Of a stretch of DNA of 64,000 bases, positions 39,766 through 60,858 are shown piece after piece. The position numbers were made by a program, and so were the translations under genes. Source of the stretch: a virus. The notes under the pieces are model-generated. The model saw nothing but the letters and a program-made list of their open reading frames with translations. It had not been told where the DNA came from and did no database searches. The first letter of the stretch is position 1. Every line of letters begins with the position of its first letter. The DNA lies in the UHGV virus genome UHGV-0277504, one strand, 5' to 3'.

Positions 39766-40354
39766 ATTATCGAAATCAATATTAACAAACAAAAAAATAG
39801 AAGATTTAATAGATATGGTAGATTCTTTTGAATTACAACAAGTAAGAAAAGTAATCGGTGATGATAATTTTTCTAATATTATTACAATTGTAAATTCTTT
39901 AGATAATGATTACTCAAAAGTATTACTTGTCGGTGTATTAGATAAATTATTACATTCTACACCTTTAGTAGAGTATGATGACGTGTATACTACGTTACGT
40001 AAATACGATGAAGCAGAGCTAAAAGAAGAGACAGCTAATTTAATAGTTCAAAATACATTATATGATAATTGTACTATTATACCTGAAAAAGAATTACCTA
40101 ATATAGGTGATTTAGAATCAGTGCAGAATTTAATTAAAGTTATTAATGTACTATCAATTATAGAAACTCCTAGTACAAAAGATTTATTTTCTGTAAGTGA
40201 AGAATTTTTAAGTATAAAAGAATTAATGAATAACTATGACTTAAATGTAGAAGGTATTATAGATAAATTATATAATTTAGATAAAAATATTGAAGATAAA
40301 GATAGTTTACCTAAAGATTTAGAAGAATTAATAAAGTATGTAATTGAATATTAA
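39716..40354 (+). CDS. hypothetical protein (probable true start at MSKLSKSIL ~39758)
   Basis: 212-aa ORF; internal ATG overlaps upstream stop. Confidence 0.5.
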   Translation: MFLSKNYQRSGKSKMSKLSKSILTNKKIEDLIDMVDSFELQQVRKVIGDDNFSNIITIVNSLDNDYSKVLLVGVLDKLLHSTPLVEYDDVYTTLRKYDEAELKEETANLIVQNTLYDNCTIIPEKELPNIGDLESVQNLIKVINVLSIIETPSTKDLFSVSEEFLSIKELMNNYDLNVEGIIDKLYNLDKNIEDKDSLPKDLEELIKYVIEY

Positions 40355-40361
40355 AATATAG

Positions 40362-40565
40362 GTGGTTATGTGTATTATGAAAAATTTATTTAAAGTGTTT
40401 TTAGATAATTATGAAGTATTTGTGGTTGCTAATAATGATAAAGAAGCAGAAAACCATTGTTTTAAATTTTTAGATTTTAATAAAATTAGTATAAGTAAAG
40501 TAAAGCAAGTTAAAAGTGATGATATTTATCCTTATTTTGTTAGGGGTAAAAGTTATGCAAGCTAA
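40362..40565 (+). CDS. hypothetical protein
   Basis: 67 aa. Confidence 0.4.
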   Translation: MVMCIMKNLFKVFLDNYEVFVVANNDKEAENHCFKFLDFNKISISKVKQVKSDDIYPYFVRGKSYAS

Positions 40566-40971
40566 ATTATACACAGACGGTAGTTCTAACTATAAATTAG
40601 GTAAAGTTGGAACAGGTGCAGTAATTGTAGATAATAGTAATAACATTTTATCAGAAATAAGTAAGGAAGTTGACAAACCAGAACTCTTAAAGTATAATAA
40701 TGTTGCAGGTGAAATACTAGCTTGTTGTTACGGTATAGAAAAGTGTATAGAACTAGGTGTCAAACAAGTAGAAATACATGTAGATTATATCGGATTAATT
40801 AAGTGGTATGATGGAACATGGCGTACAAAAAATAATTTTACTAAATTATACGTTAATATGTTAAGAGAATATGGTAAATTTATTGATTTTAATTTTATTA
40901 AAGTTAAAGCACACTCAAACGATAAGTGGAATGAGTACGCTGATAAACTTGCAAAAAAATCTATAAAATAA
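40552..40971 (+). CDS. rnhA: ribonuclease H
   Basis: YTDGSS…GAG…E…KVKAHSNDKWNEYADKLA: classical RNase H1 DEDD motifs; start MQAKLYTDGS. Confidence 0.7.
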   Translation, partial: VMQAKLYTDGSSNYKLGKVGTGAVIVDNSNNILSEISKEVDKPELLKYNNVAGEILACCYGIEKCIELGVKQVEIHVDYIGLIKWYDGTWRTKNNFTKLYVNMLREYGKFIDFNFIKVKAHSNDKWNEYADKLAKKSIK

Positions 40972-40985
40972 AAGGAGAAAAAGTT

Positions 40986-41498
40986 ATGAGAAAAATTAAT
41001 CCAGTTGTTAAATTTGAAAAATTAATAAGAACGAGTGATGTAGAAAAGGTTAGTAATTACATTCAAAATAATAATTTACCATTAAATGTAGAAGATAATA
41101 ATGATATTAATGCTATTAATAGATATTTAGTTAGTGATGATGGTAAGTTTATTGCTAAATACAATAAAGATAAAAACGCAGTAGGTTTTTATAAAGAAGT
41201 AGGAGATACTGTTAAACATTTAACACATGTTACAAGAGAAGAGCTAGGTAATACTACTTTCACTATTAAAGAAAAAGAATATATTAATTTAGTAACAGAA
41301 GTATTACCTCAAGGAGATATTTTATTAAAAACAAGTTATGAAATAGTAACTATTGATAACGATTCTGTATTAGGTTTTATTTCAGATGTAATGTATGATG
41401 TAGATGATGTTGAAGAGATTATTTACACAGGATTGTCTAGAGGTAGAACTGAAAATGTTATTTTAGATTTTCAATTAGATAAATATTTAAGTAACTAA
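40986..41498 (+). CDS. hypothetical protein
   Basis: 170 aa. Confidence 0.5.
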   Translation: MRKINPVVKFEKLIRTSDVEKVSNYIQNNNLPLNVEDNNDINAINRYLVSDDGKFIAKYNKDKNAVGFYKEVGDTVKHLTHVTREELGNTTFTIKEKEYINLVTEVLPQGDILLKTSYEIVTIDNDSVLGFISDVMYDVDDVEEIIYTGLSRGRTENVILDFQLDKYLSN

Positions 41499-41525
41499 AA
41501 AAATAATTTTTAAGGTGGAACTTCG

Positions 41526-42263
41526 ATGTCAAAAGAATTAGAATATAAATTAAGAGAGTATCCTAATGTTAGATATAATATGTTAGAACATACAGTATTT
41601 AATGAATTTTTAAATAAAGCTACACAAGAACAATTACAGTTTTGTGAGGACTTCTTTAATGATGAAGTAGAGATTTTATTTAACGAAAGTCCAGCGGGAA
41701 CAGGTAAAACTATGTGTAGTGTTGCATGTGCTTATGCAGATTGGTTAAATAAAGGAAAGAAATTAGTATTTATTATTGCTCCAGTTTCAGAAGATTTAGG
41801 TAGTAGACCAGGAAATCAAACAGAAAAAGAAATGGCATATTTTATGGGATTACACGATGCTATTACAGAACTAAATATGGTACCAGAACAAGTTATAACA
41901 GAAATGTTACTCATGGATGAAAACCATAAAGAAAACGACTTAGTAGAATGTTGGGTATCTCAAATCTCTCATTTATTCTTACGTGGTGGTAATTTGAAAA
42001 ATGTAACAGTAGTTATAAATGAAGCTCAAAACTTTAAACGTTCTGAATTAAAAAAAGTATTGACAAGACTACATTCTAATTCTAAATGTATTGTTGAAGG
42101 TAACTATAGACAAATTGATTTAAGACAAAATAATAAATCTGGATTTGAACCTTATGTAGATTACTTTAAATCAGAGAATTATCAAGGTGCAGTATATCAT
42201 CACTTTACAACTAATTTTAGAAGTAAAATAGCACAGTTTGCAGACAATTTTAATTGGAAATAA
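41526..42263 (+). CDS. phoH: PhoH-like ATPase
   Basis: Walker A SPAGTGKT; PhoH-type VVINEAQN box. Confidence 0.7.
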   Translation: MSKELEYKLREYPNVRYNMLEHTVFNEFLNKATQEQLQFCEDFFNDEVEILFNESPAGTGKTMCSVACAYADWLNKGKKLVFIIAPVSEDLGSRPGNQTEKEMAYFMGLHDAITELNMVPEQVITEMLLMDENHKENDLVECWVSQISHLFLRGGNLKNVTVVINEAQNFKRSELKKVLTRLHSNSKCIVEGNYRQIDLRQNNKSGFEPYVDYFKSENYQGAVYHHFTTNFRSKIAQFADNFNWK

Positions 42264-42283
42264 AAAATATTAAAAAAAGTATA

Positions 42284-42312
42284 TTGACATTTATATCTCC
42301 CTGTTATACAAT
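42284..42312 (+). promoter_or_regulatory. sigma-70-type promoter (AAAAGTATATTGACA-17-TACAAT)
   Basis: hexamers and spacing. Confidence 0.55.
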
Positions 42313-42334
42313 ATATCATACAGGGAGGCTTTTT

Positions 42335-42433
42335 ATGAATAAACTAACAAAGGAAGAAGTCAAACAAATATATACAAGCACTAAGACACAAGATGACAAA
42401 TATAAAAAGAGTAGAAAGATTAAAAGAATATAA
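42335..42433 (+). CDS. small basic peptide (32 aa, MNKLTKEEVKQIYTSTKTQDDKYKKSRKIKRI)
   Basis: GGGAGG SD 6 nt upstream; lies between promoter and first methyltransferase gene; below ORF-track cutoff. Confidence 0.35.
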   Translation: MNKLTKEEVKQIYTSTKTQDDKYKKSRKIKRI

Positions 42434-42447
42434 AGGAGAGTAAACTT

Positions 42448-43029
42448 ATGAGTGAAAAATATTTAACAGGAACATCTTTATCAGGAACATCAACTACAAG
42501 AGATAGGGTAGAGAATGATTATTATGCTACTCCACCAGAGAGCACTTTAAAATTATTAGAAGTAGAGGAATTTAAGGGGAATGTATTAGAACCCTGTTGT
42601 GGAGAAGGACATATATCAGAAGTATTAAAGAAAAAAGGGTTTGAAGTACACTCCAATGATTTAATAAACAGAGGTTATGGGGAAGATAACAAAGACTTTT
42701 TAAAAGAAGGTTTTAGAACTTATGACAATATTATTACAAATCCACCTTATAAGTATGCTAAGGAATTTATTGAAAAGGCATTAAAAATAACAACAGGAAA
42801 AGTAGCTATGTTTTGTAAGATTCAATTATTAGAAGGTGTATCTAGATATGATATGTTTCAAAATTCTCCTTTAAAAACAGTCTATGTATTTACTAAAAGA
42901 CAGAACCCTTGGCGTAATGGTAGTCCAGTAGATGAGAATGGTAAAAAATGGGCTAGTACAATGTGCTTTGCATGGTTTGTTTTTGAACATGGTTATGATG
43001 GAAAACCAACGATAGAATGGTTATTATAA
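42448..43029 (+). CDS. DNA N6-adenine methyltransferase (NPPY motif)
   Basis: TNPPYKY catalytic motif, EPCCGEGH AdoMet-binding-like motif. Confidence 0.65.
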   Translation: MSEKYLTGTSLSGTSTTRDRVENDYYATPPESTLKLLEVEEFKGNVLEPCCGEGHISEVLKKKGFEVHSNDLINRGYGEDNKDFLKEGFRTYDNIITNPPYKYAKEFIEKALKITTGKVAMFCKIQLLEGVSRYDMFQNSPLKTVYVFTKRQNPWRNGSPVDENGKKWASTMCFAWFVFEHGYDGKPTIEWLL

Positions 43030-43037
43030 AAAAAGTA

Positions 43038-43066
43038 TTGACATTGATATAAAAATGATGTAAAAT
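43038..43066 (+). promoter_or_regulatory. sigma-70-type promoter (AAAAAGTATTGACA-17-TAAAAT)
   Basis: hexamers and spacing. Confidence 0.5.
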
Positions 43067-43099
43067 AAAGATATAATAAAAATAAAGGAGATTTAAACT

Positions 43100-43789
43100 A
43101 TGATTAATTTATTACAAGGAGATTGTATAAAACTTATTGAAAAATTAGAGGACAACAGTGTTAATGCTATTATTACAGACCCACCGTATAACATTGCAAA
43201 AAAGAATAATTTTACTACTATGGGTAGAGCAGGTATTGATTTTGGAGATTGGGATAAAGAATTTGATGAAATTGCATGGATTGAAAAAGCAATTCCTAAA
43301 ATAAAAAAAGGTGGTAATATTGTAGTATTCTGTGATATGAGACAATTTACACCTATTATAGAAAAAATGGAAAGTTTAGGTTGTGAATTTAAAGATGTTA
43401 TCCGTATGGTTAAGTCAAATCCTATGCCTAGAAATAGGGATAGACGTTTTATTTTTGATACAGAATTTGCATTATATTTTATTAAAAAAGGCGCTAAATG
43501 GACTTTTAATAGATTAGATGAGAAATATGAAAGACCTTTAATTGAGACAACTGTTACACCTAAATCGCAAAAGGTCGATAAAGGACACCCAACACAGAAA
43601 CCTCTATATGCTATGGAATGGTTATTAGAGAGACTTACAAATGAAGGCGATACTATTCTTGACCCGTTTATGGGTAGTGGTACTACTGGAGTAGCTTGCC
43701 AAAAATTAAATCGTGATTTTATTGGTTGTGAATTATCCGATGAATATTTTAAAATGGCACAAAAGAGATTACAATATGGACTTAAATAG
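43100..43789 (+). CDS. DNA methyltransferase, beta-class (DPPY…SGTT)
   Basis: ITDPPYN motif IV followed by C-terminal FMGSGTTGVAC motif I (circularly permuted N6A/N4C class). Confidence 0.7.
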   Translation: MINLLQGDCIKLIEKLEDNSVNAIITDPPYNIAKKNNFTTMGRAGIDFGDWDKEFDEIAWIEKAIPKIKKGGNIVVFCDMRQFTPIIEKMESLGCEFKDVIRMVKSNPMPRNRDRRFIFDTEFALYFIKKGAKWTFNRLDEKYERPLIETTVTPKSQKVDKGHPTQKPLYAMEWLLERLTNEGDTILDPFMGSGTTGVACQKLNRDFIGCELSDEYFKMAQKRLQYGLK

Positions 43790-43802
43790 GAGGATAATTT
43801 AA

Positions 43803-44618
43803 ATGGAATTAAATAAAATTTATAATGAAGATTGTTTAGAGGGTATGAATAAAATACCTGATAAATCAGTAGATATGATACTTTGTGATTTACCCTATGA
43901 AGTTACTGCTTTAAAATGGGATAAGATTATACCTTTAGATAAATTATGGGAACAATATGAAAGAATTATTAAAGATAATGGTGCTATTGTTTTAACAGCT
44001 ACTCAACCCTTTACAAGTAAACTTGTAATGAGTAATTCTAAATTATTTAAACATGAATGGATTTGGGAAAAACAAAAAGCAAACAACTTCATGGGTGCTA
44101 AGTATCAACCATTAAAATATCATGAGAATATATTGGTTTTTGGTAAGGGTAAAGTAAATTATTATCCTCAGAAATATAAAGTGTTAGAAGTAGAAGAAAT
44201 AATTGAAATGAATAAAAAAGAATTAACAAACTTAATGAAAACTAGAGATTATGATAGATTTGGAAAAGTAGACAGACGTAAGACAATTAATAACTCTAAA
44301 AGTAATAAAGATTATTTAGGAACAAAAGTAACTAGAAATAGAACAAAAGATACAGGTTATAGAAATCCTAAAAGTGTTTTGAAAATTAATAAAGAGATTA
44401 ATGGTTTATTACACCCTACACAAAAACCAGTAGCTTTATTTGAATACTTAATTAAAACATACTCTAACGAGGGAGATACTGTTTTAGATAACTGTATGGG
44501 AAGTGGTACTACTGCTATTGCTTGTTTAAATACTAATAGAAATTATATAGGATTTGAATTAGATGAAGAATATTATAATAAATCTTTAGATAGAATAGAA
44601 GAACACAAAGGAGAATAA
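43803..44618 (+). CDS. DNA methyltransferase, beta-class (DLPY…SGTT), paralog of 43100
   Basis: CDLPYE motif IV, CMGSGTTAIAC motif I. Confidence 0.65.
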   Translation: MELNKIYNEDCLEGMNKIPDKSVDMILCDLPYEVTALKWDKIIPLDKLWEQYERIIKDNGAIVLTATQPFTSKLVMSNSKLFKHEWIWEKQKANNFMGAKYQPLKYHENILVFGKGKVNYYPQKYKVLEVEEIIEMNKKELTNLMKTRDYDRFGKVDRRKTINNSKSNKDYLGTKVTRNRTKDTGYRNPKSVLKINKEINGLLHPTQKPVALFEYLIKTYSNEGDTVLDNCMGSGTTAIACLNTNRNYIGFELDEEYYNKSLDRIEEHKGE

Positions 44619-44622
44619 AATT

Positions 44623-44883
44623 ATGAAAAAACTATCATACAGTTTTCAAAAAGGTAATTTTTGGAGTAAGTTGTTATGGATTGTTGGATTAACATTATCT
44701 CTAATTGTTGGTTGGTGCGTAATTGAGAGTATAGGTTTCTTCTTACAGACAACTGTAGGTACAATAGGATTGTTGTGTATTAGTCCTATTGTAGCTTTAG
44801 GTATTATTGCTTTCAGTATTGTAAAATATCCTAGAGTACGTGACCGAGATAGCTACTCTGACTATGTTAAAAAATACTTATAA
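44623..44883 (+). CDS. membrane protein
   Basis: 86 aa, 2 TM. Confidence 0.45.
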   Translation: MKKLSYSFQKGNFWSKLLWIVGLTLSLIVGWCVIESIGFFLQTTVGTIGLLCISPIVALGIIAFSIVKYPRVRDRDSYSDYVKKYL

Positions 44884-44895
44884 AGGAGGCATACG

Positions 44896-45951
44896 ATGGA
44901 ATTACAAGAAGTAACTTTATTAACTCCTTTAGATAATTTTGTAGTGTATAAAAACGGAAGAAGGAGAGTTTATGTAAATTGTTTATGTATATGTGGTAAT
45001 AAAATATGTGTCAGAGAAGATTCTTTTAAAACAAAAACAATAAAGTCTTGTGGTTGCTATAAAAAATATATTTATAATAAAGTGAAAAACCAACCTTTTC
45101 CTATAAATATAAAACGTATAAAAAATAATATTTACTATCCTATATATGGTTTTATAGGTTATTATATATCTATGAATGGTAAAATATATAGTGAATTTAC
45201 AGACAGATTTATAAAAAGAAGAAAAAACAAGAAAAATTATGTTATAGTTTCTATAATGGAAAGTGATAAAACAAAGTCTGAGCCTGTATTGTTGCATAGG
45301 TTATTAGCAAAGACGTTTATACTTAATAAAGATAATAAAGAAACAGTAAATCATAAAGATTTTAACACGTTAAACTACTCTCTATCTAACTTAGAGTGGG
45401 CAACACAACAGGAAAATAACAGTCATAGGAATAACGCAAATTATAGTGGAGAAAGAAATAATAAATCCTTTAAATTAAAACCAGAAGATGTTAAAGAAAT
45501 TTACGAATCCACCCTACCATATGAGGAGTTAGAATCATATTACGGTGTTAAAAAACAAATGTTATACAAAATAAAAAATGGCAAGTGTTGGTATGAAGTA
45601 ACAAAAGATTTAAAAAAAGGAAATTCAGATAAAAACTACTTAGACAATGAAACAATTAAAAGAATTTATAAAGAAGAAGGAAAAATAAAAGATATTGCTA
45701 AAAAATACAACGTATCAAGAGAAACTGTATCAAAAATTAAGCAACGTAAAATACATTCCAATGTTACAAAAGACTTAGTAAAAGGAGAATCTACTCACAA
45801 TCATTTCACTAAAGAATTAGTTAAGAGTATATATCTGTGTGAAGGAACGCAAAAGTATATTGCAAATAAATTTAATATCAGTCAGTCAGCTGTATCAAAT
45901 ATAAAAAGTGGAAAAACATATAGTAATATTACAAAATATATTAAGAAATGA
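44896..45951 (+). CDS. free-standing HNH homing endonuclease with C-terminal NUMOD-like HTH repeats
   Basis: HNH_3-type motif VNHKDFNTLNYSLSNLEWATQQEN; three repeated ~35-aa modules ending …KIKxGKxxxNVTK. Confidence 0.65.
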   Translation: MELQEVTLLTPLDNFVVYKNGRRRVYVNCLCICGNKICVREDSFKTKTIKSCGCYKKYIYNKVKNQPFPINIKRIKNNIYYPIYGFIGYYISMNGKIYSEFTDRFIKRRKNKKNYVIVSIMESDKTKSEPVLLHRLLAKTFILNKDNKETVNHKDFNTLNYSLSNLEWATQQENNSHRNNANYSGERNNKSFKLKPEDVKEIYESTLPYEELESYYGVKKQMLYKIKNGKCWYEVTKDLKKGNSDKNYLDNETIKRIYKEEGKIKDIAKKYNVSRETVSKIKQRKIHSNVTKDLVKGESTHNHFTKELVKSIYLCEGTQKYIANKFNISQSAVSNIKSGKTYSNITKYIKK

Positions 45952-45995
45952 GTATTCAGAGTATACAAGAAAATATTTATAAAGGAGAATAAATT

Positions 45996-46589
45996 ATGGT
46001 AAATGAAATTAAAGACAAGAAAGTATATTTAGGAGGGCATCTACTTAACCAAGCAATGGTAGAATATAGACAAAAACAACATGATGAAGTGGAAGGTATT
46101 ATAGGTATAACACCTTATTCTCCTATTAATGATAAATCAATTAATGATAAGGAAAATGCTGTACAAGAAGGTCTTGCAGAAAGGATTCTTAACAATGATT
46201 TTAGAGCTATGCAAGAATCTGATATTTTTGTATTTGATGTATTAAATGAAGGTATTGGTACCATTGCTGAATTAAGTATTGTTCTAGGTATGAAACATCA
46301 AGCAGATAGAACCTTAGCATTAATTGAATCTCAATTACACTATGACCACCCAGAATATTATAATGTACATCAAATTGCATCTGAATCTAAAAAAATATTA
46401 GAGAAACCTGTTCTAATTTACTGTTCAGATATTCGTCAAGGACATGGTAAACCATATAGTGACCCAGACAGAGCTGAATTTAGTACGAACCAATTCGTTT
46501 ATGGCATGATTTTATCATTAACCAATGGCAAAGGATTTATGTCTTGGGAAGAGGTTAAAGAAGAATTAGAATATTTAGGAGGAAATTAA
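45996..46589 (+). CDS. nucleoside 2-deoxyribosyltransferase-like protein
   Basis: N-terminal VYLGGHL… and FVFDVLNEGIGTIAELS motifs resemble NDT family. Confidence 0.45.
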   Translation: MVNEIKDKKVYLGGHLLNQAMVEYRQKQHDEVEGIIGITPYSPINDKSINDKENAVQEGLAERILNNDFRAMQESDIFVFDVLNEGIGTIAELSIVLGMKHQADRTLALIESQLHYDHPEYYNVHQIASESKKILEKPVLIYCSDIRQGHGKPYSDPDRAEFSTNQFVYGMILSLTNGKGFMSWEEVKEELEYLGGN

Positions 46590-46590
46590 T

Positions 46591-46893
46591 ATGGATAATG
46601 TATCTAATAATGTAATTGAAAAAGTATCCAATGCATTAGGGTATAGTTGGAGTACTTTAGTACATCAGCAAATATGGAATGGTATTCTATTTTTACTAGT
46701 GGGCTTAGTTGTAGCTTTTGTAATTTATTTACTATGGTATAAATTTAATTTGAAATTAACAACTTCAAATGTAATTATAACATACTTACTGTTAGGGGTA
46801 TTATGTGTATCTTTATCTATATATGGTTTAGCTCATATTGTAAATCCTAGTTACTTTGCACTACAAGAAGCTAAAACCATAATTGCAAAATAA
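46591..46893 (+). CDS. membrane protein
   Basis: 100 aa, 2 TM. Confidence 0.45.
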   Translation: MDNVSNNVIEKVSNALGYSWSTLVHQQIWNGILFLLVGLVVAFVIYLLWYKFNLKLTTSNVIITYLLLGVLCVSLSIYGLAHIVNPSYFALQEAKTIIAK

Positions 46894-46962
46894 GTCAAAA
46901 GAGTAATCATTTTGATTACTCTTTTATTATATTAAGAAATAAAAAAGAATAGAGGAGACGTT

Positions 46963-47598
46963 ATGATAGCTCAAATAATATACAAGGATATACCTATATT
47001 ACTTGCTATGCTATATGGTATTTTAGTAATTATAGGATATATACCAGCTTTAATATCGTTAGTAAAAGATAAAAATCTAAATGGAGTTAGTAGTAGTTTT
47101 TGGTACTTAATAAGTGTAACTGTAGGTATTAGTTTTTATAATATAATATTAACTGGAGGAACACGATTTCAAGTAGTATCAATATTCTTAAACTTTCTTT
47201 TAGGTGTTGTTTGCTTACTAGTACTTAATTATCGTAAATTTAAATTTCATGGTATAGTTTATACAGTTATATTCTTATTAGCATTATATTTATTTTTAGG
47301 ATTATTAACTAGTATAGAAATTACACAAACAGTAGCTAGTGTATCTATTGTACTAGCTTATGTAGGACAAATATATAAATTTGTTAAATCTAAATCTTCT
47401 AGTGGTACTAATAAATGGTTATACTTACTTATAGGTGTAGGTTTATTAAGTTTAGTTACAAGTATGGTTTTAACTGATGTGTCTAATCATATTATTATAA
47501 CAGAATTAATTAATTTTATTTTAATATTAATTTGTTATTTTATGTCTAATTATTACTATAAAAGTGGGGTAGATATAAGTGAAAGACGAAGTAAGTAA
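46963..47598 (+). CDS. polytopic membrane protein (possibly PnuC-like transporter)
   Basis: 211 aa, ~6 TM segments; family assignment tentative. Confidence 0.4.
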   Translation: MIAQIIYKDIPILLAMLYGILVIIGYIPALISLVKDKNLNGVSSSFWYLISVTVGISFYNIILTGGTRFQVVSIFLNFLLGVVCLLVLNYRKFKFHGIVYTVIFLLALYLFLGLLTSIEITQTVASVSIVLAYVGQIYKFVKSKSSSGTNKWLYLLIGVGLLSLVTSMVLTDVSNHIIITELINFILILICYFMSNYYYKSGVDISERRSK

Positions 47599-60297: not shown

Positions 60298-60858
60298 TTC
60301 CCTTCTGTGAATTACTGTAATTATATATTATCATTTATCTTATGATTAATCAATAGATTTACATAAATTTATTTAACTTTTTTCGTTGGTCTATTTTCTA
60401 CTATTATATGAAGAAACTGGAAAATAGGTTAAAATAAAATTAGATTGTGTACAACAAGATCTCACCATAAAAAAATTATTATATAAAAAAATTATAGTTA
60501 TGCTAAATAATAAAATAAATAAGCAGGTGTAAAATTGACTATTGATTTTGAACATGGTTTATTATATAATGGAAGTGATGACTATCTTTAAGTTAATAAA
60601 TATATTATATAAAAAAATTATATAATACCCTTTTTTTATAACCCACCCACCACTCCAATTATTATGTTAAGGCATTTTTGCCAATTTGTCAAGAGGTAAA
60701 TTTTACACTTTTTTCTTTTGTAAATAGTGTAAAATTGCCCTAAAAACTTTTAAAATTATATTTACAAATACGGTAATATGCTGTAATATATTAAGTGTAG
60801 TAAGCAAGGGAAACAAATTCCCACTACAAATATTATATAAAAAAGGAATTGATTAAAA

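What the first reader, a model, noticed from the sequence alone, without database searches (positions are those of the whole stretch)
42284..44618. Three consecutive DNA methyltransferase genes (NPPY, DPPY and DLPY types) behind an early promoter and a 32-aa leader ORF
Tandem MTases are 42448..43029 (TNPPYKY), 43100..43789 (DPPY…SGTT beta-class) and 43803..44618 (DLPY…SGTT, paralog of the previous). They are uncommon among K-like staphylococcal phages, which typically evade restriction by site avoidance. Three distinct specificities suggest broad anti-restriction self-methylation. The small basic ORF 42335..42433 between promoter and first MTase could be regulatory.
Basis: partly seen in the sequence, partly recalled or inferred. 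Interest (0 to 1): 0.55.

Follow-up and report, generated by a model that had tools for sequence, protein, structure and literature searches.

The report
Three-gene phage DNA methyltransferase array
A Staphylococcus epidermidis phage carries three intact, unrelated DNA adenine-methyltransferase genes in a known recombination hot spot, most likely to shield its DNA from host restriction enzymes; near-identical phages are already annotated this way, and the small "leader" gene is only a deletion scar.

Summary
In detail: three intact ORFs lie at 42448..43029, 43100..43789 and 43803..44618 with the stated motifs, behind a near-consensus promoter and a 32-aa ORF.

All three are credible DNA N6-adenine methyltransferases from different lineages, each with an experimentally characterised relative:
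- MT1: a TRD-less gamma-type enzyme with no Pfam model, 33-36% identical to the small GANTC-specific PhiLM21-family enzymes.
- MT2: beta-class, 49% identical to M1.HpyAVI (GAGG).
- MT3: beta-class, 68% identical and gap-free to lactococcal M.Phi145I (GGWGA, HphI protection), which also carries DLPY.

dN/dS is about 0.11-0.13 for each gene.

- The phage is a Sepunavirus (SEP1-like), not K-like.
- It also shows extreme site avoidance (GATC 1 observed against about 131 expected).
- There are two promoters, not one.
- MT2 and MT3 are not recent duplicates.
- The 32-aa ORF is a three-piece recombination scar, not a leader.

The slot between phoH and the membrane-protein gene holds 0, 1, 3 or 4 MTases in sister phages and is shared with Sextaecvirus siphophages. 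The genes are already annotated in Twillingate and BE06, and the hot spot was described in 2026. No methylome data exist. The finding is ordinary and of low interest.

The parts
41526..42263 (+). phoH-like ATPase gene. It forms the conserved left boundary of the variable MTase slot.
   Evidence: Pfam PhoH, E=2e-27. It is present in every Sepunavirus and Sextaecvirus relative examined, whether or not MTases follow it.
42284..42312 (+). Promoter P1, sigma-A type (TTGACA-17-TACAAT), preceded by AAAAAAAGTA.
   Evidence: 11 of 12 consensus matches in an intergenic gap. It shares the upstream AAAAAGT(A/G) motif with other strong promoter-like sites in the window. It is a 72% direct repeat of P2. Activity and timing were not tested.
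42297..42327 (.). Perfect 8-bp inverted repeat, CTCCCTGT / ACAGGGAG, flanking the -10 hexamer of P1. The right arm overlaps the GGGAGG RBS. It may be the operator of the lost HTH protein.
   Evidence: Repeat I11. It is conserved upstream of the intact 168-aa HTH gene in PG-2021_46. The operator role is inference only.
42335..42433 (+). 32-aa ORF, a recombination scar in three pieces:
- 42335-42391: codons 1-19 of a 168-aa triple-HTH gene.
- 42390-42422: codons of about 111-121 of the same gene, with a 1-nt insertion that shifts the frame.
- 42415 onward: the last 29 nt of a lost upstream beta-class MTase gene.
   Evidence: Established by blastn and alignments to PG-2021_46, Quidividi and SEP9. 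The second piece matches 30 of 33 nt, and 0 of 2000 shuffles reached its score. Frame +1 reads KRVERLKEYKGE*, which is an MTase C-terminus.
42448..43029 (+). MT1: a 193-aa minimal gamma-type (motif X-I-IV) N6-adenine amino-methyltransferase with no target-recognition domain. Predicted activity is DNA m6A; specificity is unknown.
   Evidence: - Profiles: phrog_799, E=2e-68; no Pfam or NCBIfam family reaches threshold.
- Family size: 4,367 close hits and 7,267 50%-cluster representatives.
- Conservation: motifs are invariant across the family.
- Structure: AF2 pLDDT 82; best superposition is M.TaqI-DNA, TMq 0.60.
- Characterised relatives: 33% identity (E=1e-19) to GANTC-specific Phi2LM21_p21 and 36% (E=4e-19) to PhiLM21_p027 (PMC5537653).
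- Fusions: family members are fused to ParB_N and N6_N4_Mtase domains.
- Selection: dN/dS 0.13.
43038..43066 (+). Promoter P2, sigma-A type (TTGACA-17-TAAAAT), in front of MT2.
   Evidence: 11 of 12 matches in the 70-nt MT1-MT2 gap. The promoter and RBS modules are direct repeats of those at P1.
43100..43789 (+). MT2: a 229-aa beta-class DNA N6-adenine methyltransferase and homologue of M1.HpyAVI. The best guess for its target is a short asymmetric GAGG-like motif.
   Evidence: - Pfam PF01555, E=4e-42.
- Full-length match to PDB 5HEK/5HFJ, E=3e-64, 49.3% identity.
- The catalytic Asp of DPPY and the E216 equivalent are conserved, while the second half of the TRD diverges.
- dN/dS 0.11.
43803..44618 (+). 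MT3: a 271-aa beta-class DNA N6-adenine methyltransferase whose motif IV reads DLPY. It is a close homologue of M.Phi145I. The best guess for its target is GGWGA (overlapping the HphI site). It is probably translationally coupled to MT2, because its RBS overlaps the MT2 stop codon.
   Evidence: - Pfam PF01555, E=9e-31.
- 68% identity over 269 aa with no gaps, E=2e-144, to phi145 gp02. That enzyme was cloned and shown to protect against HphI (PMC4190342).
- DLPY is also present in that active enzyme.
- dN/dS 0.13.
44623..44883 (+). 86-aa membrane-protein gene. It forms the conserved right boundary of the variable slot.
   Evidence: phrog_3093, E=2e-38. It lies directly after the slot in SEP1, Terranova, Quidividi, Twillingate, 6ec and SEP9.
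46897..46925 (+). First terminator-like hairpin downstream, and the likely end of the transcription unit that begins at P1/P2.
   Evidence: It is the only terminator-like site in 40000-47500. SEP1 has an annotated terminator at the equivalent position.

Best explanation
The locus is an array of three orphan DNA N6-adenine methyltransferase genes carried by a SEP1-like (Sepunavirus) S. epidermidis myophage. It sits in a recombination hot spot between phoH and a small membrane-protein gene.

**Expression (inferred).** Host RNA polymerase would transcribe the array from two sigma-A-type promoters. P1 drives the scar ORF and MT1. P2 drives MT2, MT3 and the downstream genes as far as the hairpin at 46897.

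**Biochemistry (inferred from homology).** The three enzymes, from three different lineages, would methylate adenines in three different short motifs on replicating phage DNA. The best guesses from the nearest characterised relatives are:
- MT3: GGWGA.
- MT2: GAGG-like.
- MT1: unknown; its relatives recognise GANTC.

**Biological role (inferred).** Progeny DNA would be pre-protected against host Type II/IIS enzymes, and possibly against some Type I/III enzymes, that site avoidance does not cover. Because all three are amino-MTases and none makes m5C, the modifications would not expose the phage to the staphylococcal m5C-directed Type IV enzyme.

**Origin.** The array is assembled and reshuffled by recombination at repeated promoter/RBS modules and at the conserved 3' ends of MTase genes. 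The 32-aa ORF is a by-product of two such deletion events.

**Shown versus inferred.** Shown here: gene integrity, family membership, homology to characterised enzymes, purifying selection, variable slot content and the scar structure. Inferred: actual activity, target motifs, promoter timing and the protective effect.
For: - **Family membership.** MT2 and MT3 score far above the Pfam PF01555 threshold. MT1 hits phrog_799 at 2e-68.
- **Characterised relatives.** MT3 is 68% identical, with no gaps, to M.Phi145I. That enzyme was cloned and shown to give GGWG(m6A) methylation and HphI protection (PMC4190342). MT2 is 49% identical over its full length to M1.HpyAVI, with the catalytic D and E conserved. 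MT1 has E=1e-19 and 4e-19 to the GANTC-specific Phi2LM21_p21 and PhiLM21_p027.
- **MT1 structure and fusions.** The MT1 model has an M.TaqI-like fold. Family members are fused to ParB_N and N6_N4_Mtase domains.
- **Selection.** dN/dS is 0.11-0.13 for all three genes.
- **Orphan status.** The neighbours are phoH, a membrane protein and an HNH homing-type endonuclease. That HNH gene is also present in SEP1, which has no MTase, so it is not a cognate restriction enzyme.
- **Accessory nature.** The slot holds 0, 1, 3 or 4 MTases in roughly 96-98% identical phages, which is what is expected of host-range genes.
- **Host barriers.** The main S. epidermidis barriers are diverse Type I systems and an m5C-directed Type IV system (PMC6918075).
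- **Independent proposal.** PMC13152194 proposes the same role for this region.
Against: - No methylome, restriction-protection or host-range data exist for any Sepunavirus MTase.
- Target motifs are extrapolated from relatives at 33-68% identity. The second half of the MT2 TRD and its P41-equivalent residue differ from M1.HpyAVI.
- No host R-M system with a matching specificity was identified. MT2-like genes were not found on any staphylococcal plasmid.
- The phage already avoids many Type II sites, so the added benefit is not demonstrated.
- Relatives such as SEP1 do without any of these genes. The copies in 6ec and PG-2021_46 are broken, so the genes are dispensable in some settings.
- PMC13152194 could not link MTase content to host range.
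Confidence: 0.7

Rival explanations
1. The MTase genes are mainly selfish or hitch-hiking cargo. They would spread by recombination or homing-endonuclease-stimulated gene conversion in a hot spot and give the phage little benefit.
For: - The slot is highly mosaic and is shared between myoviruses and siphoviruses at about 87-93% nucleotide identity.
- HNH homing-type endonuclease genes flank it, at window 44896..45951 and as SEP9_061.
- The scarred 168-aa gene is 37% identical to the DNA-binding half of that HNH protein.
- The copies in 6ec and PG-2021_46 are inactivated by deletions.
- In lactococcal phage Phi93 the MTase genes likewise flank an HNH gene (PMC4190342).
Against: - dN/dS of 0.11-0.13 and intact catalytic motifs in several lineages show selection on the proteins themselves.
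- MT2 orthologues are retained at about 81% identity in S. aureus myophages such as Romulus, Remus, Stau2 and SA11.
- Mobility and benefit are not mutually exclusive.
Confidence: 0.15
2. The methylation serves the phage's own life cycle, for example replication, packaging or gene-expression timing, as proposed for the CcrM-mimicking phage MTases of Alphaproteobacteria or for P1 Dam. It would not serve anti-restriction.
For: The authors who characterised the relatives of MT1 proposed a replication-linked role (PMC5537653). The array lies among nucleotide- and DNA-metabolism genes: RNase H, phoH and nucleoside deoxyribosyltransferase.
Against: Closely related phages (roughly 96-98% identical across the region) have none (SEP1), one (Terranova) or four (Quidividi) of these genes and are all viable. 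No essential life-cycle step can therefore depend on them.
Confidence: 0.07
3. MT1 is not a DNA methyltransferase. It would be an RNA (tRNA or rRNA m6A) or protein amino-methyltransferase.
For: - No DNA-MTase Pfam or NCBIfam model reaches threshold.
- The lowest Foldseek E-value is to a TrmN6-like protein. Dim1/KsgA and TrmM rank alongside M.TaqI.
- The protein has no target-recognition domain.
Against: - It is homologous, at E about 1e-19, to enzymes shown experimentally to methylate GANTC in DNA.
- Family members are fused to ParB_N and to beta-class DNA MTases.
- It always lies next to DNA MTase genes.
- The best TM-score is to the M.TaqI-DNA complex.
Confidence: 0.08
4. The 32-aa ORF is a functional leader or regulatory peptide that controls MT1 expression.
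For: - It has a strong RBS (GGGAGG-N5-ATG).
- It ends 15 nt before the MT1 start codon.
- It is basic (11 K/R).
- It is identical in the window, Twillingate and 6ec.
Against: - It is assembled from three unrelated gene fragments, with a frameshift in the middle.
- Its RBS and start codon are inherited from the 168-aa HTH gene.
- Quidividi and SEP9 express the same MT1 gene with a full MTase gene in that position instead.
- The ORF has no family hit in Pfam, NCBIfam or PHROGs.
- Its identity across phages reflects a recently shared module with no substitutions at all, so it gives no evidence of selection.
- No terminator or attenuator structure follows it.
Confidence: 0.05

Closest known systems
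Twillingate_050-053, and the BE06-BE09 and BE24 orthologues, in GenBank (Sepunavirus)
   Same: The gene order is the same: 32-aa ORF, 'SAM-dependent methyltransferase', then two 'site-specific DNA methyltransferase' genes between phoH and the membrane-protein gene. The 3.3-kb region is 98.9-99.3% identical at the nucleotide level. The MT1 and MT3 proteins are 100% identical to the BE phage proteins.
   Different: Outside the cassette the window is not identical to any record in the collection; the best match is Twillingate at 97.4% identity over 92% coverage. The downstream HNH gene is the SEP1-type 351-aa version.
M.Phi145I / M.Phi93I of lactococcal 936-type (Skunavirus) phages
   Same: Both are beta-class orphan phage MTases. 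MT3 is 68% identical with no gaps, including the DLPY motif IV and the TRD region. The lactococcal gene also sits in an insertion hot spot, next to an HNH gene in Phi93. The enzyme has been shown to methylate GGWG(m6A) and to block HphI (PMC4190342).
   Different: The host genus and the genomic slot differ (between the terminase genes there). The C-terminal roughly 45 aa diverge: phi145 reads AGSFTT where MT3 reads MGSGTT. MT3's specificity has not been tested.
M1.HpyAVI (Helicobacter pylori HP0050; PDB 5HEK, 5HFJ)
   Same: MT2 aligns over its full length at 49% identity. Both are beta-class with a DPPY motif, a very short TRD and the conserved D29 and E216 equivalents. M1.HpyAVI methylates adenine in GAGG, and also in GGAG and GAAG in strain 26695.
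   Different: M1.HpyAVI belongs to a Type II R-M system with a second MTase and an endonuclease, whereas MT2 is an orphan. The P41 position is Thr in MT2, and the second half of the TRD differs.
Small NPP[Y/F/W] phage m6A MTases of Alphaproteobacteria (PhiLM21_p027, Phi2LM21_p21, Paracoccus prophage 179-aa enzymes)
   Same: MT1 has the same minimal architecture, with a SAM motif, NPP[YFW] and no TRD. It is homologous at E=1e-19 and 4e-19 with 33-36% identity. These relatives are orphan phage enzymes with experimentally shown DNA m6A activity at GANTC (PMC5537653).
   Different: Identity is low, so specificity cannot be transferred. The hosts are Gram-negative. The authors proposed a role in mimicking CcrM, and staphylococci have no CcrM.
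M.TaqI (gamma-class N6-adenine DNA MTase, PDB 1G38)
   Same: The motif order is the same: xTP, then LEPxxGxG, then NPPY. The MT1 model superposes best on this structure, with TMq 0.60.
   Different: M.TaqI has a large C-terminal TRD that MT1 lacks. Sequence identity is 16%. The Pfam models for this class do not reach threshold on MT1.

Membership tests
Beta-class N6A/N4C DNA amino-methyltransferases (Pfam PF01555 N6_N4_Mtase): MT2 | Profile score above the curated threshold. | tested here: met
   145 bits against a cut-off of 26.7, E=4e-42, covering profile positions 1-221 of 221.
Beta-class N6A/N4C DNA amino-methyltransferases (Pfam PF01555 N6_N4_Mtase): MT2 | Permuted motif order, with catalytic motif IV (D/S-P-P-Y/F) near the N-terminus and SAM motif I (FxGxG-type, GSGTT) near the C-terminus. 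The catalytic Asp and the SAM-ribose Glu must be conserved. | tested here: met
   DPPY at aa 27-30 and SGTT at aa 193-196. Both the D29 and E216 equivalents of M1.HpyAVI are aligned and conserved.
Beta-class N6A/N4C DNA amino-methyltransferases (Pfam PF01555 N6_N4_Mtase): MT3 | Profile score above threshold and the permuted motif order. | tested here: met
   108 bits against 26.7, E=9e-31. DLPY at aa 29-32 and SGTT at aa 234-237.
Beta-class N6A/N4C DNA amino-methyltransferases (Pfam PF01555 N6_N4_Mtase): MT3 | Canonical (D/N/S)PP(Y/F/W) catalytic tetrapeptide. | tested here: inconclusive
   The first Pro is replaced by Leu, giving DLPY. The same DLPY occurs in M.Phi145I, which is experimentally active (PMC4190342), and in the other sequenced homologues P0305, P0272 and P0343. 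The variant is therefore compatible with activity, but it departs from the textbook motif.
Gamma-class N6-adenine DNA MTases (M.TaqI-like; Pfam N6_Mtase/Eco57I): MT1 | Motif order X (xTP), then I (ExxxGxG), then IV (NPPY). | tested here: met
   YATP at aa 26-29, EPCCGEG at aa 48-54 and NPPY at aa 98-101. These positions are invariant across 41 family members.
Gamma-class N6-adenine DNA MTases (M.TaqI-like; Pfam N6_Mtase/Eco57I): MT1 | Curated profile match above threshold. | tested here: not met
   The best Pfam hits are Methyltransf_23 (18.4 bits against 27) and MTS (16.9 against 23). NCBIfam gives only a 17-bit fragment of TIGR02987. MT1 should not be filed in those Pfam families.
Gamma-class N6-adenine DNA MTases (M.TaqI-like; Pfam N6_Mtase/Eco57I): MT1 | A separate target-recognition domain after the catalytic domain. 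| tested here: not met
   The protein is 193 aa and the whole model is a single Rossmann-type domain. It covers only the catalytic half of M.TaqI: TMq 0.60 but TMt 0.32.
Small phage NPP[Y/F/W] DNA m6A MTases (PhiLM21_p027 family; phrog_799): MT1 | Significant sequence homology to the experimentally characterised members, spanning the SAM and NPP motifs. | tested here: met
   E=4e-19 with 36% identity to PhiLM21_p027. E=1e-19 with 33% identity over 190 aa to Phi2LM21_p21. phrog_799 at 2e-68.
Small phage NPP[Y/F/W] DNA m6A MTases (PhiLM21_p027 family; phrog_799): MT1 | DNA m6A activity at a defined motif (GANTC in the characterised members). | not testable with these tools
   This needs a methylome or a HinfI-protection assay. 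The window has 135 GANTC sites and they are not depleted.
Orphan (solitary) phage MTase used for anti-restriction | No cognate restriction endonuclease is encoded beside the MTase. | tested here: met
   The neighbours are PhoH, an 86-aa membrane protein and an HNH_3 plus triple-HTH homing-type endonuclease. The same HNH gene is present in SEP1, which has no MTase.
Orphan (solitary) phage MTase used for anti-restriction | Phage DNA is methylated at the enzyme's motif and thereby protected from a host or commercial restriction enzyme. | not testable with these tools
   No published methylome or protection data were found for Sepunaviruses or for Silviavirus phages.
Regulatory leader peptide / upstream ORF | The ORF is an independently conserved unit with its own evolutionary history, coupled to a structure such as an attenuator or terminator, or to a regulated RBS, in front of the controlled gene. 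| tested here: not met
   The ORF is a three-fragment chimera with an internal frameshift. No terminator-like element follows it. Other phages have a full MTase gene at that position in front of the same MT1.

The most novel reading that the evidence does not exclude
The array may be a broad-spectrum counter-measure aimed at the hyper-diverse Type I R-M systems of S. epidermidis rather than at specific Type II enzymes.

Several short-motif or low-specificity m6A MTases, including the TRD-less MT1 whose Pfam-less family has more than 7,000 50%-identity clusters, would methylate adenines that happen to fall inside one half-site of many bipartite Type I targets. Such targets would then be hemimethylated. 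By established Type I enzymology (my own knowledge, not tested here), hemimethylated sites are methylated rather than cut.

A variant of this idea is that MT1 and its almost invariably adjacent beta-class partner (adjacent or fused to it in other genomes) methylate the two strands of one asymmetric site.
Probability: 0.12. Interest if true: 0.5.

Novelty: already known. Interest (0 to 1): 0.2.

Why it matters
Sepunaviruses are candidates for therapy against S. epidermidis. Which MTases a phage carries could set its host range on strains with different R-M systems.

The analysis gives concrete, cheap tests. HphI, MnlI and HinfI digests of virion DNA would probe the predicted GGWGA, GAGG-like and GANTC motifs. 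SEP1 (no MTase), Terranova (MT3 only), this phage (three) and Quidividi (four) form a natural allelic series for assigning motifs.

It also removes a false lead, since the "leader ORF" is a scar. It flags that MT1 belongs to a very large family of minimal m6A MTases that has no Pfam model.

Conceptually, however, orphan phage MTase arrays are well known, and this one is already annotated.

Tried and rejected
1. **Is the 32-aa ORF a truncated copy of the 80-81-aa gene that fills this position in SEP1, Quidividi and Terranova?** No similarity was found.
2. **Direct PDB sequence search with MT1.** It returned only noise, E>1. A predicted structure and a fold search were needed instead.
3. **Genomic context of the S. 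epidermidis chromosomal MT3 homologue P0297.** The sequence was not on record, so I could not check whether it sits in an R-M system or a prophage.
4. **Staphylococcal plasmid-borne R-M systems with an MT2-like MTase.** Only five plasmid hits were found and none was staphylococcal.
5. **S. epidermidis Type I target motifs from PMC6918075, to quantify half-site overlap.** The tables are not held as text. Only GAGN7TAC (RP62a) and GAGN6TCG were recovered, so the calculation was dropped.
6. **Could the HNH endonuclease downstream be a cognate restriction enzyme?** Rejected, because SEP1 carries the same HNH gene with no MTase and the protein has homing-endonuclease architecture.
7. **Is M.Phi93DAM (NPPY-only, GATC) a relative of MT1?** From the paper's description (63% identical to a prophage L54a N-6 adenine MTase), my guess is that it belongs to the PF05869 Dam family. 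Its family was not scanned here and no link to MT1 was established.
8. **Is the overall promoter-like site count informative?** No: 50 sites against 54.5 expected. Only the two 11-of-12 intergenic sites are meaningful.
9. **dN/dS on the 32-aa ORF.** This is impossible, because the ORF has no substitutions among the window, Twillingate and 6ec.

Full report
**1. Observation**

- a 32-aa ORF at 42335..42433;
- MT1 at 42448..43029 (193 aa);
- MT2 at 43100..43789 (229 aa);
- MT3 at 43803..44618 (271 aa).

The quoted motifs are present:
- MT1: YATP aa 26-29, EPCCGEG aa 48-54, NPPY aa 98-101.
- MT2: DPPY aa 27-30, SGTT aa 193-196.
- MT3: DLPY aa 29-32, SGTT aa 234-237.

Each gene has a good Shine-Dalgarno sequence. 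The MT3 RBS overlaps the MT2 stop codon. A TTGACA-17-TACAAT site (11 of 12 matches) starts at 42284.

The two promoter and RBS modules are 72-76% direct repeats of each other. They share the AAAAAGT(A/G)-TTGACA signature of other strong promoter-like sites in the window. The only terminator-like hairpin nearby is at 46897-46925. The MTases therefore head a longer transcription unit that runs through a membrane-protein gene, an HNH endonuclease gene and a nucleoside 2-deoxyribosyltransferase gene.

**2. What phage this is**

The region is 99.3% identical to S. epidermidis myophages vB_SepM_BE06-09 and BE24, and 98.9% identical to Twillingate. All are Herelleviridae, Twortvirinae, genus Sepunavirus (phiIBB-SEP1-like). 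Over 24 kb the best match is Twillingate, at 97.4% identity and 92% coverage, and no record in the collection is identical. 'K-like' is thus only loosely right: the subfamily is the same but the genus differs.

In Twillingate the four ORFs are already annotated as hypothetical protein, SAM-dependent methyltransferase and two site-specific DNA methyltransferases. The BE phages label them 'DpnA' and 'RsrI'.

**3. The three enzymes**

*MT2* scores 145 bits on Pfam PF01555 N6_N4_Mtase (cut-off 26.7). It aligns end to end with the solved H. pylori M1.HpyAVI (5HEK/5HFJ) at E=3e-64 and 49.3% identity. M1.HpyAVI is a dimeric beta-class m6A enzyme with a very short TRD. It methylates GAGG, and also GGAG and GAAG in strain 26695. 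Its residues D29 and E216 are essential, and P41 tunes specificity (PMC5173035). MT2 keeps both essential residues. It has Thr at the P41 position and diverges in the second half of the TRD. 'GAGG-like' is therefore a best guess only.

*MT3* scores 108 bits on PF01555. It is 68% identical (83% similar) over 269 residues, with no gaps, to gp02 of Lactococcus phage phi145 (E=2e-144). That protein is M.Phi145I. Murphy et al. cloned it and showed that it protects DNA from HphI (GGTGA). They assigned it the SMRT motif GGWG(m6A) (PMC4190342). M.Phi145I also carries DLPY, so the unusual motif IV is a functional variant and not a sign of decay.

*MT1* is the least obvious of the three.
- It misses every Pfam and NCBIfam threshold and has no PDB sequence relative.
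- It hits phrog_799 'DNA methyltransferase' at 2e-68.
- It belongs to a very large family: 4,367 close homologues and 7,267 50%-identity cluster representatives. Most are stand-alone proteins of about 190 aa.
- The family conserves the motifs D-Y-A-T-P, E-P-x-C-G-x-G-H and N-P-P-[YF]. That is the gamma-class order X-I-IV, as in M.TaqI.
- An AlphaFold model (pLDDT 82, pTM 0.80) is a single Rossmann domain. Its best superposition is the M.TaqI-DNA complex (TMq 0.60). tRNA and rRNA m6A enzymes and Type I M subunits rank alongside it. There is no room for a TRD.
- Longer family members fuse this domain to ParB_N and to PF01555 domains.
- Decisively, MT1 is homologous to Phi2LM21_p21 (33% identity over 190 aa, E=1e-19) and to the stand-alone PhiLM21_p027 (36% identity, E=4e-19). 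Both were shown experimentally to be GANTC-specific DNA m6A MTases. They are described as part of a group of small NPP[W/F/Y] phage enzymes (PMC5537653).

I conclude that MT1 is a DNA m6A MTase of unknown specificity. I give the rival reading, an RNA or protein MTase, about 8%.

MT2 and MT3 align only over their C-terminal 63 residues (51% identity). They share a family but are not recent duplicates.

All three genes are under purifying selection. dN/dS is 0.13 for MT1 against SEP9, 0.11 for MT2 against PG-2021_46 and 0.13 for MT3 against Terranova. For comparison, phoH gives 0.07.

**4. The slot is a recombination hot spot**

The content between phoH and the 86-aa membrane-protein gene varies among relatives:

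| Phage | Content of the slot |
|---|---|
| SEP1 | only an 81-aa hypothetical gene flanked by two promoters |
| Terranova | the 81-aa gene plus an MT3 orthologue (91% nt) |
| Quidividi | an 80-aa gene, an extra 225-aa beta-class MTase, then MT1, MT2 and MT3 |
| Window, Twillingate, BE phages | the 32-aa ORF plus MT1, MT2 and MT3 |

The whole phoH-to-deoxyribosyltransferase module, including MTase variants, is shared at about 87-93% nucleotide identity with Sextaecvirus siphophages (6ec, SEP9, PG-2021_46).

Decay is visible in those siphophages. In 6ec a deletion of window 42746-43411 joins the N-terminal part of MT1 to the C-terminal part of MT2, out of frame. In PG-2021_46, MT1 is absent and a 98-nt deletion removes motif I of MT3.

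A 120-kb phage-like contig from an S. haemolyticus assembly carries a different array in front of the same deoxyribosyltransferase gene: Dam (PF05869), then an MT1-like gene, then an N6_N4_Mtase gene. MT2 orthologues at about 81% identity occur in S. aureus myophages such as Romulus, Remus, Stau2 and SA11, and 59 staphylococcal phage records carry an MT2 homologue.

MTases are therefore not exceptional among large staphylococcal myophages. A 2026 paper already singles out this '~42 kbp' MTase region as the main difference among Sepunaviruses and proposes R-M evasion, without methylome data (PMC13152194).

**5. The 'leader ORF' is a scar**

- Window 41532-42391 is collinear with PG-2021_46. There, the same promoter, RBS and start codon open a 168-aa protein with three HTH repeats. 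Related phages annotate it as 'transcriptional repressor'. The first 19 codons of the window ORF are its 5' end.
- Window 42390-42422 matches codons of about 111-121 of that gene (30 of 33 nt). A one-base insertion in an A-run shifts the frame. None of 2000 shuffles reached the alignment score.
- From 42415 onward the window is collinear with Quidividi and SEP9, starting 29 nt before the stop codon of their extra upstream MTase gene. In frame +1 the window still reads ...KRVERLKEYKGE*, an MTase C-terminus.

The ORF is thus the residue of two deletions with short junction homologies. It has no family hit. It is nucleotide-identical in the window, Twillingate and 6ec, so no selection test is possible.

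The 168-aa protein is 37% identical to the C-terminal DNA-binding half of the HNH endonuclease at 44896..45951. A perfect 8-bp inverted repeat (42297-42304 and 42320-42327) brackets the -10 hexamer of P1. It may be the orphaned operator of that protein, which would leave P1 unrepressed. This last point is inference only.

**6. Site avoidance**

The window (28.5% G+C) shows extreme depletion of several sites:

| Site | Observed | Expected |
|---|---|---|
| GATC | 1 | about 131 |
| GGNCC | 0 | 26 |
| GGCC | 0 | 11.5 |
| CCGG | 0 | 14.9 |
| GATATC | 0 | 17.7 |

The candidate MTase targets are not depleted. GGWGA occurs 180 times, GAGG/CCTC 157 times and GANTC 135 times. This phage therefore combines avoidance with methylation; it does not substitute one for the other.

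**7. Mechanism and rivals**

Best explanation (confidence about 0.7): this is an orphan array of three functional DNA m6A MTases. It is transcribed from two host-type promoters and modifies phage DNA at three different short motifs to evade restriction.

All three are amino-MTases. Their modifications therefore do not create targets for the m5C-directed Type IV enzyme, which together with very diverse Type I systems forms the main S. epidermidis barrier (PMC6918075). That compatibility is my inference.

The rivals are selfish hot-spot cargo (0.15), a life-cycle or regulatory role (0.07), MT1 acting on RNA or protein (0.08) and a genuine leader peptide (0.05). Activity, motifs, timing and benefit are all untested. 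No methylome or protection data were found for these phages.

**8. Verdict**

However, the feature is an ordinary, already annotated example of a well-known strategy, in a hot spot already described in the literature.

What this analysis adds:
- specific motif predictions from characterised relatives;
- evidence of purifying selection;
- the modular recombination picture shared between myoviruses and siphoviruses;
- the demonstration that the 'leader ORF' is a scar.

Interest is 0.2 and novelty is 'already known'.

Noticed in passing
window 1-64000; lone GATC at 60458; lone GCGC at 43491 (inside MT2): The window shows extreme restriction-site avoidance. GATC occurs once against about 131 expected. 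GGNCC, GGCC, CCGG, CGCG and GATATC do not occur at all, and GCGC occurs once. The single GCGC lies inside the MT2 gene, which fits a foreign origin for the cassette.
   Followed up: partly
window 41532-46590 compared with L005 (6ec), L006 (SEP9) and L007 (PG-2021_46): A module running from phoH through the MTase slot, the membrane-protein gene and (in SEP9 only) an HNH endonuclease gene to the nucleoside deoxyribosyltransferase gene is shared between about 140-kb Sepunavirus myophages and about 90-kb Sextaecvirus siphophages. Nucleotide identity is about 70-95%, which implies recent exchange between genera.
   Followed up: partly
L005 3917-4584 (6ec); L007 4585-5220 (PG-2021_46): The MTase copies in these siphophages are inactivated. 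In 6ec, the MT1 N-terminal part is joined out of frame to the MT2 C-terminal part at a CAAATCC microhomology. In PG-2021_46, a 98-nt deletion removes motif I of MT3. GenBank annotates the 6ec fragments as two overlapping 'methyltransferase' CDSs.
   Followed up: yes
window 42297-42304 and 42320-42327: A perfect 8-bp inverted repeat (CTCCCTGT-N15-ACAGGGAG) brackets the -10 hexamer of promoter P1 and overlaps the RBS. It is conserved upstream of the intact 168-aa HTH gene in PG-2021_46. It may be an autoregulatory operator left without its repressor in this phage.
   Followed up: partly
window 44896-45951: This 351-aa protein has an N-terminal HNH_3 domain and three C-terminal HTH repeats (with Sigma70_r4/HTH_3-like hits). 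The free-standing 168-aa 'transcriptional repressor' of the siphophages is 37% identical to the HTH half. It may be a homing-endonuclease DNA-binding module that lost its nuclease domain.
   Followed up: partly
MT1 family (P0001-P0270); window 42448-43029: This is a very large family of minimal NPP[YF] methyltransferases of about 190 aa, with 7,267 clusters at 50% identity. No member in the listed hits has a Pfam domain, and NCBIfam has no model for it, even though some relatives have been characterised experimentally.
   Followed up: partly
L011 and L012, 7505-10049 (phage-like contigs; L012 is from an S. haemolyticus assembly, L011 from a metagenome): A different tandem MTase array (Dam PF05869, then an MT1-like gene, then an N6_N4_Mtase gene) sits directly upstream of a nucleoside deoxyribosyltransferase gene. 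The surrounding genes are those of a large phage, including DNA polymerase III alpha, a ligase and ribonucleotide reductase.
   Followed up: no
window 40670-40698: A perfect 12-of-12 sigma-70 consensus site (TTGACA-17-TATAAT) lies inside the RNase H-like ORF (40516..40971) on the coding strand. It could be an internal promoter or a chance match.
   Followed up: no
window 45996-46589: This is a nucleoside 2-deoxyribosyltransferase-like gene. Its Pfam score is below threshold (26 bits against 28.8), but it is consistently annotated as such and is conserved downstream of the MTase slot in all relatives examined.
   Followed up: no
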